DNA of 64,000 bases from the human T2T-CHM13v2.0 reference genome, Homo sapiens, in NCBI RefSeq assembly GCF_009914755.1, contig NC_060947.1; one strand, given 5' to 3'. Positions 30,149 to 53,128 of this stretch are shown here, in pieces. Under the pieces are notes generated by a model, which saw only the letters and a list, made by a program, of their open reading frames with translations, had not been told where the DNA came from and made no database searches. Position 1 is the stretch's first letter. Every line of letters begins with the position of its first letter. Position numbers and translations under genes: made by a program.

Positions 30149-30365
30149 AAAAGGTTGGTATATAGGGTGGCTGGCAGCCAAGGTGGCCGAATACGAACAG
30201 CTCTGGTCTACAGCTCACAGTGTGAGCGACGCAGAAGACAGGTGATTTCTGCATTTCCATCCGAGGTACCGGGTTCACCTCACTAGGGAGTGCCAGACAG
30301 TGGGCACAGGACAGTGGGTGCAGTGCACCATGTGTGAGCCGAAGCAGGGTGAGGCATTGCCTCAC

Positions 30366-30620
30366 TCAGGAATTGCAAGGGGTCAGGGAGTTCCATTTCC
30401 TAGTCAAAGAAAGGGGTGACAGACGGCACCTGGAAAATCGGGTCACTCCTGCCCCAATACTGTGCTTTTCCGATGGGCTTAAAAAACAGCGCACCAGGAG
30501 ATTATATCCCGCATCTGGCTTGGAGGGTCCTACGCCCACGGAGTCTCGCTGATTGCTAGCACAGCAGTCTGAGATCAAACTGCAAGGCGGCAGAGAGGCT
30601 GGGGAAGGGGTGCCAGCCAT
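30366..30620 (-). CDS. L1 antisense ORF0 of element B (84 aa, MAGTPSPASLPPCSLISDCC...)
   Basis: ATG at 30620 within ORF 30366..30695; first donor mutated (CAG|AT), second (CAG|GTGCCG) retained. Expression unknown. Confidence 0.5.
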   Translation of the reverse strand: MAGTPSPASLPPCSLISDCCASNQRDSVGVGPSKPDAGYNLLVRCFLSPSEKHSIGAGVTRFSRCRLSPLSLTRKWNSLTPCNS

Positions 30621-31205
30621 TGCCGAGTTAGTTGTTTGATTAGGCAAACAAAGCTGCCTGGAAGCTCGAACTGGGTGGAGCCCAACACAGCTCAAGGAGG
30701 CCTGCCCGCCTCTGTAGGCTCCACCTCTGGGGGCAGGGCACAGACAAACAAAAAGACAGCAGTAACCTCTGCAGACTTAAATGTCCCTGACAGCTTTGAA
30801 GGGAGCAGTGGTTCTCCCAGCATGCAGCTGGAGATCTGAGAACGGGCAGACTGCCTTCTCAAGTGGGCCTCTGACCCCTGACAACCAAGCAGCCTAACTG
30901 GGAGACACCCACCAGTAGGGGCAGACTGACACCTCACACGGCCAGGTACTCCTCTGAGACAAAAGTTCCAGATGAACGATCAGACAGCAGCATTCGCAGT
31001 TCACGAAAATCAGCTGTTCTGCAGCCACTGCTGCTGATACCCAGGCAAACAGGGTCTGGAGTGGACCTCTAGCAAACTCCAACAGACCTGCAGCTGAGGG
31101 TCCTGTCTGTTAGAAGGAAAACTAACAAACAGAAAGGACATCCACACCAAAATCCCATCTGTACATCACCATCATCAAAGACCAAAAGTAGATAAAAACA
31201 CAAAG

Positions 31206-50100: not shown

Positions 50101-53100
50101 CTTAAAATTGTGATGTTAGGGTGTCAATTTTAGATCTTTCCTGCTTTCTTTTGTGGGCATTTAGTGCTATAAATTTCCCTCTACACACTGCTTTGAATGT
50201 GTCCCAGAGATTCTGGTATGTTGTGTCTTTGTTCTCATTGGATTCAAAAGAACATCTTTATTTCTGCTTTCATTTCGTTATGTACCCAGTAGTCATTCAG
50301 AAACAGGTTGTTCAGTTTCCATGTAGTTGAGCGGTTTTGAGTGAGTTTCCTAATGTTGAGTTCTAGTTTGATTGCACTGTGGTCTGAGAGACAGTTTGTT
50401 AAAATTTCTGTTCTTTTACATTTGCTGAGGAGTGCTTTACTTCCAATTATGTGGTCAATTTTGGAATAGGTGTGGTGTGGTGCTGAGTATAATGTATATT
50501 CTGTTGATTTGGGGTGGAGAGTTCTGTAGATGTCTATTAGGTCTGCTTGGTACAGAGCTGAGTTCAATTCCTGGATATCCTTGTTAACTTTCTGTCTCAT
50601 TGATCTGTCTAATGTTGACAGTGGGGTGTTAAAGTCTCCCATTATTATTGTGTGGGAGTCTAAGTCTCTTTCTAGGTCCCTAAGGACTTGCTTTATGAAT
50701 CTGGGTGCTTCTGTGTTGGGTGCATATCTATTTAGGTTAATTAGCTCTTCTTGTTGAATTGATCCCTTTACCAGTATGGAATGGCCTTCTTTGTCTCTTT
50801 TGATCTTTGTTGGTTTAAAGTCTGTTTTATCAGACTAAGATTGCAACCCCTGCCTTTTTTTGTTTTCCATTTGCTTGTTAGATCTTCCTCCTTCCCTTTA
50901 TTTTGAGCCTATTTGTGTCTCTGCACATGAGATGGGTTTCCTGAATACAGCACACTGATGGGTCTGGACTTTTTATACAATTTGCCAATCTGTGTCTTTT
51001 AATTTGAGCATTTAGCCCATTTACATTTAAGTTTAATATTGTTATGTGTGAATCTGATCCTGTCATTATGATGTTAGCTGGTTATTTTGCTCGTTAGTTG
51101 ATTCAGTTTCTTCCTAGCCTCAATGGTCTTTATAATTTGGTGTGTTTTTGCAGTGGCTGGTATCGGTTGTTCCTTTCCATGTTTAGTGCTTCCTTCAGGA
51201 GCTCTTGTAGGGCAGGCCTGGTGGTGACAAAATCTCTCATCATTTGCTTGTCTGTAAAGGATTTTATTTCTCCTTCACTTATGAATCTTAGTTGGTTGGA
51301 TATGAAATTCTGGGTTGAAAATTCTTTTCTTTAAGAATGTTGAATATTGGCCCCCACTCTCTTCTGGCTTGTAGAGTTTCTGCCGAGAGATCCGCTGTTA
51401 GTCTGATGGGCTTCCCTTTGTGGGTAACCTGACCTTTCTCTCTGGCTGCCCTTAACAGTTTTTCCTTCATTTCAACTTTGGTGAATCTGACAGTTACGTG
51501 TCTTGGAGTTGCTCTTCTCGAGGAGTATCTTTGTGGTTTTCTCTGTATTTCCTGAATTTGAATGTTGGCCTGCCTTGCTAGGTTGGGGAATTTCTCCTGG
51601 ATAATATCCTGCAGAGTGTTTTCCAGATTGATTCCTTTCTCCCCGTCACTTTCAGGTATACCAATCAGATGTAGATTTCATCTTTTCACATAGTCCCATA
51701 TTTCTTGGAGGCTTTGTTCATTTCTTTTTATTCTTTTTTCTCTAAACTTCTCTTCTTGCTTCATTTCATTCATTTGGTCTTCCATCAGATACCCTTTCTT
51801 CCAGTTGATCAAATCGGCACTGAGACTTGTGCATTCATCACGTATTTCTCGTGCCATGGTTTTCAGCTCCATCAAGTCCTTTAAGGACTTCTCTGCATTG
51901 GTTATTCTAGTTAGCCATTCATCTAATCTTTTTTCAAGGTTTTTAACTTCTTTGCCATGGGTTCGAACTTCCTCCTTTAGCTCGGAGAAGTTTGATCATC
52001 TGAAGCCTTCTTCTCTCAACTCGTCAAAGTCATTCTCTGTCTAGCTTTGTTCCCTTGCTGGTGAGGAGCTGCATTCCTTTGGAGGAAGAGAGGTGCTCTG
52101 ATTTTTAGAATTTTAGTTTTTCTACTCTGTTGTTTTCCCATCTTTGCAATTTTATCTACCTTTGGTCTTTGATGATTGTGACGTACAAATGGGGTTTTGC
52201 TGTGGATATCCTGTTTGTTAGTGTTCCCTCTAACAGTCAGGACCCTCAGCTGCAGGTCTGTTGGAGTTTGCCAGAGGTGCACTGCAGTTCCTGTTTGCCT
52301 GGGTATCAGCTGCGGAGGCTGCAGAACAGCGAATATTGCTGAACAGCAAATGTTGCTGCTTGATCGTTCCTCTGGAAATTTTGTCTCAGAAGAGTACCCG
52401 GCCATGTGAGGTGTCAGTCTGCCCCTACTGGCGGCTTCCTCCCAGTTAGGCTACTCCGGGTTCAAGGACCCTCTTGAGGAGGCAGTCTGTCCGTTCTCAG
52501 ATCTCAAGCTGCATGCTGGGAGAACCGCCACTTTCTTCAAAGCTGTCAGACAGGGATATTTAAGTCTGCAGAGGTTTCTGCTGCCTTTTGTTTGTCTGTG
52601 CCCTGCCCCCACAGGTAGAGTCTACAGAGGCAGGCAGGCCTCCTTGAGCTGCAGTGGACTCCACCCAGTGCGAGCTTCCTGGCCACTTTGTCTACCTTCT
52701 CAAGCCTCAGCAATTGTGGGCACCCCTTCTCCAGGCTTGCTGTGGCCTTGCAGTTTGATCTCAGACTGCAGTGCTAACAATGAGCAAGGCTCCGTGGGCT
52801 TAGGACCCTGCGAGCCAGGTGCAGGATCTAATCTCCTGGTGTGCCGTTTGCTAAGACTGTCGGAAAAGCACAGTATTAGGGTGGGACTGACCCAATTTTC
52901 CAGGTGCCTTCTGTCACTCCTTTCTTTGGCTAGGAAAGGGAATTCCCTGACCCCTTGGACTTCCTGGGTGAGGTGATGCCTGCCCCTGCTTTGGCTCATG
53001 ATCAGTGCACTGCACCCACTGTCCTGTACCCACTTTCTTACAATCCCCCGTGAGATGAACCCAGTACCTCAGTTGGAAATGCAGAAATCATTCGTCTTCT

Positions 53101-53128
53101 GCATTGCTCATGCTGTGAGCTGTAGACC
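47119..53128 (-). mobile_element. Near-full-length L1PA4 (element D), inactivated, missing ~33 nt at the 5' end
   Basis: ORF1 ATG at 52141, ORF2 51066-47341 fragmented (481-aa piece with FADD), deletion near 49770; TSD tctc(a/g)tttttc at 47108-47118 and 53129-53139. Confidence 0.95.

What the first reader, a model, noticed from the sequence alone, without database searches (positions are those of the whole stretch)
30165..53128. Patchwork of shared non-consensus variants among neighbouring L1s suggests local gene conversion
Seen: B (+) and C (-), inverted and ~3 kb apart with separate TSDs, share many departures from the recalled L1PA consensus: [49 protein letters not shown]. At 40200-40360, C instead matches D ([13 protein letters not shown], agtaaattgc; also FTVAS) while B is consensus-like there. 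B and D share ISIEAE, LKMIR and EVVAR. These pairings are mutually incompatible with a single tree, and the 3'UTRs indicate different subfamilies (PA2/3, PA3, PA4). Inference: repeated short non-allelic conversion tracts have homogenised a local L1 cluster.
Basis: partly seen in the sequence, partly recalled or inferred. Interest (0 to 1): 0.72.

Follow-up and report, generated by a model that had tools for sequence, protein, structure and literature searches.

The report
Neighbouring L1 copies share converted patches
Three old, separately inserted jumping-gene copies lying within 23 kb on the human X chromosome share patches of rare mutations found together almost nowhere else in the genome, most likely because DNA repair copied short stretches between them, a process already described for other human repeats.

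Summary
L1 copies B (+), C (−) and D (−) each have their own target-site duplication. B and C differ at 11 of 13 lineage-diagnostic sites, so they are separate insertions. Yet B and C share 15 rare non-CpG alleles in 2 kb, against at most 2 with any of 57 unlinked close relatives. They are identical over 232 and 223 bp, and C carries 9 of 9 rare B alleles in B 35144–35748. Genome-wide, a three-allele B/C 40-mer occurs only in B and C (common form 9,755 places). A two-allele C/D 20-mer occurs in 3 places (common form 18,954), and a three-allele B/D pattern only in B and D. This excludes a shared sub-lineage. The best reading is repeated local non-allelic gene conversion, with C likely the main recipient. 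'Homogenised' overstates it: B and C still differ by 4.4% overall, and A, 19 kb away, shows no clear exchange. Ape orthologues, other haplotypes and reads were unavailable, so timing, direction and assembly artefact are untested. The process is known for neighbouring Alus; I found no report of this locus. A clear, modest example.

The parts
30165..36311 (+). L1 copy B, full length (5'UTR about 1,040 bp), broken ORFs; TSD 30149-30164 / 36304-36319; inserted inside an older L1
39418..41396 (-). L1 copy C, 5'-truncated 2-kb copy (starts at B 34335), tail-to-tail with B across a 3.1-kb spacer; TSD 39415-39429 / 41395-41409; likely main recipient
47112..53128 (-). L1 copy D, near full length, older lineage; TSD 47108-47118 / 53129-53139
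35144..35375 (+). B=C identical run, 232 bp (C 40352-40583); rare shared alleles at 35246, 35273 (also D) and 35352
35383..35491 (+). B=C identical run, 109 bp (C 40236-40344), no rare allele
35526..35748 (+). B=C identical run, 223 bp (C 39979-40201); 7 rare shared alleles at 35605-35700
40307..40367 (-). C=D identical run, 61 bp (D 48004-48064), with the two shared alleles at C 40345-40346
40183..40245 (-). C/D patch (D 47881-47943): shared alleles at C 40235, 40232, 40204, 40202, with two C-private changes between them
34060..34283 (+). B/D patch: rare shared alleles at B 34060, 34147, 34283 (D 49368, 49281, 49145), interleaved with 7 D-private and 1 B-private sites
34460..34901 (+). Scattered shared alleles left of the long tract: B/C at 34460, 34779, 34901; C/D at B position 34537
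35765..35959 (+). Scattered shared alleles right of the long tract: 35765 (B, C, also A), 35883 (B, C), 35959 (B, C, D)
5131..11194 (+). L1 copy A, 19 kb upstream of B: internal negative control with no clear exchange

Best explanation
Three separately inserted L1 copies (B, C, D) carry patches of each other's rare alleles, most likely left by several rounds of local non-allelic gene conversion, in which a break in one copy was repaired using a neighbour 3-15 kb away as template without a net crossover. Shown: separate insertions, intact TSD pairs (no net inversion or deletion), allele sharing far above chance and confined to these neighbours, and patches with different partners. Inferred: at least one long B-C event or run of events over B 35144-35748, several short B-C patches, at least two D-C patches and a B-D patch. 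Inferred more weakly: C was the recipient from both B and D. The two perfect B-C runs are probably young (0 differences in 455 bp, upper 95% bound 0.66%; a few million years at a recalled rate near 1e-9 per base per year). No function is implied: all three copies have broken reading frames.
For: Rare shared alleles B-C 15 of B's 44 and C-D 7 of C's 47, against at most 2 (B, C) or 3 (D) with any of 57 unlinked copies; binomial p 1e-12 and 5e-4 at a generous 3% background. In the tract C has 9 of 9 rare B alleles, panel 8 of 513. Genome-wide exact counts: B/C three-allele 40-mer 2 places, both here, 1 place with two of the alleles, 100 places at two mismatches, every listed one carrying a single allele, common form 9,755; C/D 20-mer 3 places, common form 18,954; C/D 28-mer 20 places, and no listed place other than C and D carries both C/D motifs; B/D three-site pattern only B and D; two scattered B/C allele pairs 5 places each, two of them B and C. 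Longest identical runs exceed permutation: B-C p 0.001, B-D p 0.007, C-D p 0.024; pairs with A p 0.07-0.19. Tree switch. Direction: C is young-type at 10 of 13 diagnostics but carries alleles also seen in D and in older fragments F or E at 35381, 35523 and 35525; at 35545 it has the allele of 14 of 18 older-type and 10 of 39 young-type copies.
Against: No orthologues, other haplotypes or reads, so no ancestral state was seen directly. The panel holds best hits to B and C only; relatives of D and A could not be fetched, so rarity of D-lineage alleles rests on the pattern counts. Long identical runs alone are not unusual among panel pairs (median 162 bp, maximum 601; B to one panel copy 227 bp): the shared rare alleles carry the argument, not run length. 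The AU test does not reject B+C as sisters outside the tract (p 0.205). The B/D patch is odd: 7 D-private and 1 B-private sites lie between the three shared ones, and two C-private changes sit inside a 34-bp C/D patch. Tract ends were chosen after seeing the data, which biases the age young.
Confidence: 0.85

Rival explanations
1. Same outcome, fewer events: one or two long heteroduplexes, for example a fold-back of the inverted B/C pair, were repaired patchily and left interleaved shared and unshared sites. This is a variant of conversion that disputes the number of events.
For: Shared alleles alternate with differences over 1.5 kb between B and C and over 224 bp between B and D. B/C and B/D are inverted pairs. 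The B/C symmetry axis (37863.5) falls in a TA-rich repeat at 37837-38046.
Against: C and D are direct repeats and also share patches. The two perfect runs look younger than the flanks, where only 6 of 35 rare B alleles are shared (3 of 18, 3 of 7, 0 of 10). The axis coincidence has about a 7% chance.
Confidence: 0.2
2. The segment between B and C (or B and D) inverted and re-inverted by recombination, and the shared patches are conversion tracts left at crossover points.
For: Inverted L1PA pairs mediate human inversions (PMC9675761, passages). At 36094 B has the younger and C the older allele, as if swapped.
Against: All three TSD pairs are concordant, so only an even number of flips fits. One swapped site among 13 is within panel homoplasy (4 of 39 young-type copies have the old allele). 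Pure exchange would not make alleles shared. Copies mediating inversions in that paper had median 97.1% similarity, above B-C (95.3%).
Confidence: 0.1
3. Assembly or polishing error mixed sequence between nearby copies.
For: Only one assembly was examined; no reads were available.
Against: Three partners, both orientations, and single shared sites flanked by copy-specific differences. From general knowledge, 2-6 kb copies that differ by 4-9% are spanned and separated by long accurate reads.
Confidence: 0.04
4. C is a retrotransposed daughter of B, or B, C and D come from one small source lineage.
For: B and C are sisters in the tract tree; one unlinked panel pair shares 6 rare alleles, so small lineages exist.
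Against: B and C differ at 11 of 13 lineage diagnostics, interleaved with the shared alleles. The haplotypes occur in no or very few other copies. The three pairings are mutually incompatible.
Confidence: 0.02

Closest known systems
Non-allelic gene conversion between neighbouring Alu elements (Aleshin and Zhi 2010, known here only through PMC6598467 and PMC8230782, passages)
   Same: Excess sharing of non-diagnostic mutations between nearby copies; reported as elevated within about 10 kb and at hotspots, especially on sex chromosomes.
   Different: Here the copies are 2-6 kb L1s, tracts can be mapped, three partners are involved, and the B/D sites lie 15 kb apart.
Non-allelic gene conversion between human gene duplicates (bioRxiv 10.1101/135152, passages)
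   Same: Mean tract 250 bp and 2.5e-7 per base per generation; the perfect runs here are 232 and 223 bp. My rough arithmetic (recalled age about 15 My) gives about 0.15 conversions per site per direction, the same order as 15 of 44 alleles shared.
   Different: The copies arose by retrotransposition from different source lineages. GC bias is not established here (8 weak-to-strong, 4 strong-to-weak, 4 neutral).
L1-mediated conversion repair in cells and at single human loci (Tremblay 2000 and Myers 2002, seen only as cited in PMC1920257, passages)
   Same: L1 sequence is used as a repair template; tracts as short as 13 bp are cited, and one intrachromosomal case is proposed.
   Different: Those are induced breaks or single loci; this is a repeated three-way exchange among immediate neighbours.
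L1-L1 recombination-mediated deletions and inversions (PMC9675761, PMC12350158, passages)
   Same: Recombination between nearby L1PA copies.
   Different: Crossover outcome there; here TSDs are intact and no rearrangement is seen.

Membership tests
Non-allelic gene conversion | Donor and recipient are separate loci of independent origin | tested here: met
   Own TSDs; B and C differ at 11 of 13 diagnostics
Non-allelic gene conversion | Shared derived alleles in excess of homoplasy and absent from the wider family | tested here: met
Non-allelic gene conversion | Sharing confined to tracts, with a change of genealogy along the sequence | tested here: met
   Runs and permutation; sisters 100/99 in the tract, apart outside it, though the AU test outside is not significant
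Non-allelic gene conversion | No exchange of flanks (non-crossover) | tested here: met
   Concordant TSD pairs for B, C and D; an even number of inversions is not excluded
Non-allelic gene conversion | One-way transfer shown by the ancestral state in orthologues or other haplotypes | not testable with these tools
   No ape or other human assemblies are held; direction rests on lineage alleles only
Non-allelic gene conversion | GC bias of transferred alleles | tested here: inconclusive
   8 W>S, 4 S>W, 4 neutral among 16 shared alleles; private alleles 25 W>S, 26 S>W
   No Dfam held. Distance to the panel majority: B 3.7%, C 3.4%, D 6.0%, A 6.1%; B is older-type than C
L1-mediated inversion | Chimeric elements with discordant TSDs | tested here: not met

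The most novel reading that the evidence does not exclude
Close L1 neighbours, inverted pairs on the X above all, convert each other so often that a third of a copy's rare mutations can come from or pass to a neighbour. This locus would then be one case of a genome-wide L1 counterpart of the Alu neighbour effect, distorting ages and subfamily calls of clustered L1s, with some tracts young enough to vary among people.
Probability: 0.35. Interest if true: 0.6.

Novelty: new member of a known kind. Interest (0 to 1): 0.42.

Why it matters
L1 copies are usually treated as evolving independently after insertion, which underlies dating by divergence and subfamily assignment. This locus shows mappable, repeated exchange among three neighbours that differ by 4-9%, in both orientations. 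It gives a clean test case for tract length, direction and timing once ape and pangenome sequences are added, and a simple statistic (rare alleles shared against distance) for a genome-wide survey. No effect on a gene or a phenotype is indicated.

Tried and rejected
Panels of relatives of D and A could not be obtained, so B's 5' half (before 32860) was tested only three-way with A: no convincing B-D tract (best run 30243-30269, p 0.02 uncorrected, beside A's ragged 5' end). B/D matches at 33107 and 33902 were dropped as alignment-ambiguous, and 33301 is a gap column. A-D, A-E and D-E sharing (12, 8 and 10 alleles) was read as older-lineage diagnostics, since most are common to A, D and E; D-E alone share 3 and this was not resolved. 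A-C sharing (4) equals A's maximum with the panel. C's old alleles at 36094, 36190 and 36256 were not counted as conversion, because intermediate panel copies show similar patterns. CpG-type sites (CG in at least 15% of the panel) were left out of all rare-allele counts. Fragments E and F carry none of the B/C alleles they cover. Ten literature searches found no report on this locus and no survey of neighbouring-L1 conversion; the library lacks most subscription papers. Aleshin and Zhi 2010, Tremblay 2000, Khan 2006 and Myers 2002 were not held. No supplements were read.

Full report
Anatomy. Self-alignment of the window shows four L1 copies: A (+, 5131-11194), B (+, 30165-36311), C (−, 39418-41396, 5'-truncated at B 34335) and D (−, 47112-53128), plus older fragments. 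Pairwise identity is B-C 95.3%, C-D 92.5%, B-D 90.7%, A-B 90.8%. B, C and D have their own TSDs of 16, 15 and 11 bp, one mismatch each, so they are separate insertions with no net rearrangement. None has an intact ORF2; the longest open frames are about 500 aa.

Reference panel. I searched the genome with the 2-kb 3' parts of C and B and took the 30 best loci of each: 60 loci, of which 2 are self and 1 a duplicate, leaving 57. These are the best of 40 scored among about 15,000 candidates per search, so the panel favours close, little-diverged relatives. The same searches with D and A gave best hits at 94% but no sequence. All copies were projected onto B 32800-36312.

Observation. Counting non-CpG alleles seen in at most 2 other panel copies over B 34335-36290: B-C share 15, C-D 7, B-D 1, A-B 2, A-C 4. 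B or C shares at most 2 with any panel copy, D at most 3, A at most 4; the 1,596 panel pairs average 0.14, maximum 6. B and C are identical over 35144-35375, 35383-35491 and 35526-35748. Across that 605-bp span C has 9 of 9 rare B alleles (panel 8 of 513); in the flanks 3 of 18, 3 of 7 and 0 of 10. Eight of the ten B-C differences inside the span fall in or beside two patches where C matches D; seven are sites where C equals D, one is a CpG change in B and two are private to C. Upstream of C's start, B and D share 3 of B's 4 rare alleles in 34031-34334 (panel 1 of 212).

Genome-wide test of the sub-lineage rival. The B/C 40-mer with three rare alleles matches exactly only at B and C; one other place has two alleles and 100 places lie at two mismatches. 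The common form occurs 9,755 times. The C/D two-allele 20-mer occurs at 3 places against 18,954 for the common form. The second C/D motif occurs at 20 places, and only C and D carry both. The B/D three-site pattern occurs only at B and D. Two pairs of scattered B/C alleles occur at 5 places each, including B and C. The alleles are therefore not lineage markers, and the sharing is local.

Independent ancestry. At 13 diagnostic sites B is old-type at 11 and C young-type at 10; they differ at 11. These sites lie between the scattered shared alleles, which excludes one full-length overwrite and a parent-daughter relation. In trees, B and C are sisters in the tract (100/99, B's branch length 0) and sit with different relatives outside it, but support outside is weak and the AU test does not reject sisterhood (p 0.205). 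Overall B-C distance (4.4%) equals the mean distance of each to unlinked relatives, so the cluster is patched, not homogenised.

Mechanism (inferred). Repair of breaks using a nearby homologous copy as template, resolved without crossover, best explains patches shared with different partners in both orientations. C seems to be the main recipient: it carries old-lineage alleles of D at 35381, 35523 and 35525, and weakly a B-type allele at 35545. The perfect runs show 0 differences in 455 bp (upper bound 0.66%), which suggests a few million years at a recalled mutation rate; post-hoc tract ends bias this young. The number of events is open: many short tracts, or a few long heteroduplexes repaired patchily. 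The interleaving in the B/D patch and the two C-private changes inside a C/D patch are not fully explained by either. Re-inversion cannot be excluded but is not needed. Assembly error is unlikely but untested.

Comparison with what is known. Conversion between neighbouring Alus is reported as elevated within about 10 kb and on sex chromosomes (PMC6598467, PMC8230782; passages). Human duplicates convert with mean tracts of 250 bp at 2.5e-7 per base per generation (10.1101/135152; passages); by rough arithmetic with a recalled age, the sharing here is of that order, so no hotspot need be invoked. L1 conversion is cited for cultured cells and single loci (PMC1920257; passages). PMC8232201 (passages) added nothing specific. 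Ten searches found no report of this locus or of a neighbouring-L1 survey, but four key papers were not held and most subscription journals are absent. Subfamily ages and mutation rates are recalled, not from a call.

Verdict. It is a new, well-resolved member of a known process. Interest 0.42.

Noticed in passing
window 37837-38046: A TA-rich tandem repeat contains the symmetry axis of the inverted B/C pair (37863.5); about a 7% chance coincidence, possibly a break-prone site.
   Followed up: partly
window about 29500-30164 and 36312-36853: B sits inside an older L1 whose left flank ends near the ORF1 start and whose right flank resumes near the ORF2 3' end: the host lacks about 4.4 kb at the point where B's TSD lies.
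   Followed up: partly
window 17757-20329: A 2.5-kb degenerate (TA)n-type array lies between A/E and B.
   Followed up: no
L030 and L049 (different contigs of G000): Two unlinked panel copies share 6 rare alleles: a small sub-lineage or a distant conversion.
   Followed up: no
window 35019 (B coordinates): A, B, C and D all carry an allele seen in only 7 of 57 panel copies; may be CpG-related, ancestral or shared locally.
   Followed up: no
window 33576-33679, 33791 and 34504 (B coordinates): D lacks about 104 bp present in B; B lacks 19 bp and 4 bp present in A, D and most panel copies.
   Followed up: no
window 15259-16068: Fragment E (minus strand) shares 3 rare alleles with D alone (B positions 35887, 36187, 36255); probably lineage markers, not resolved.
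   Followed up: partly
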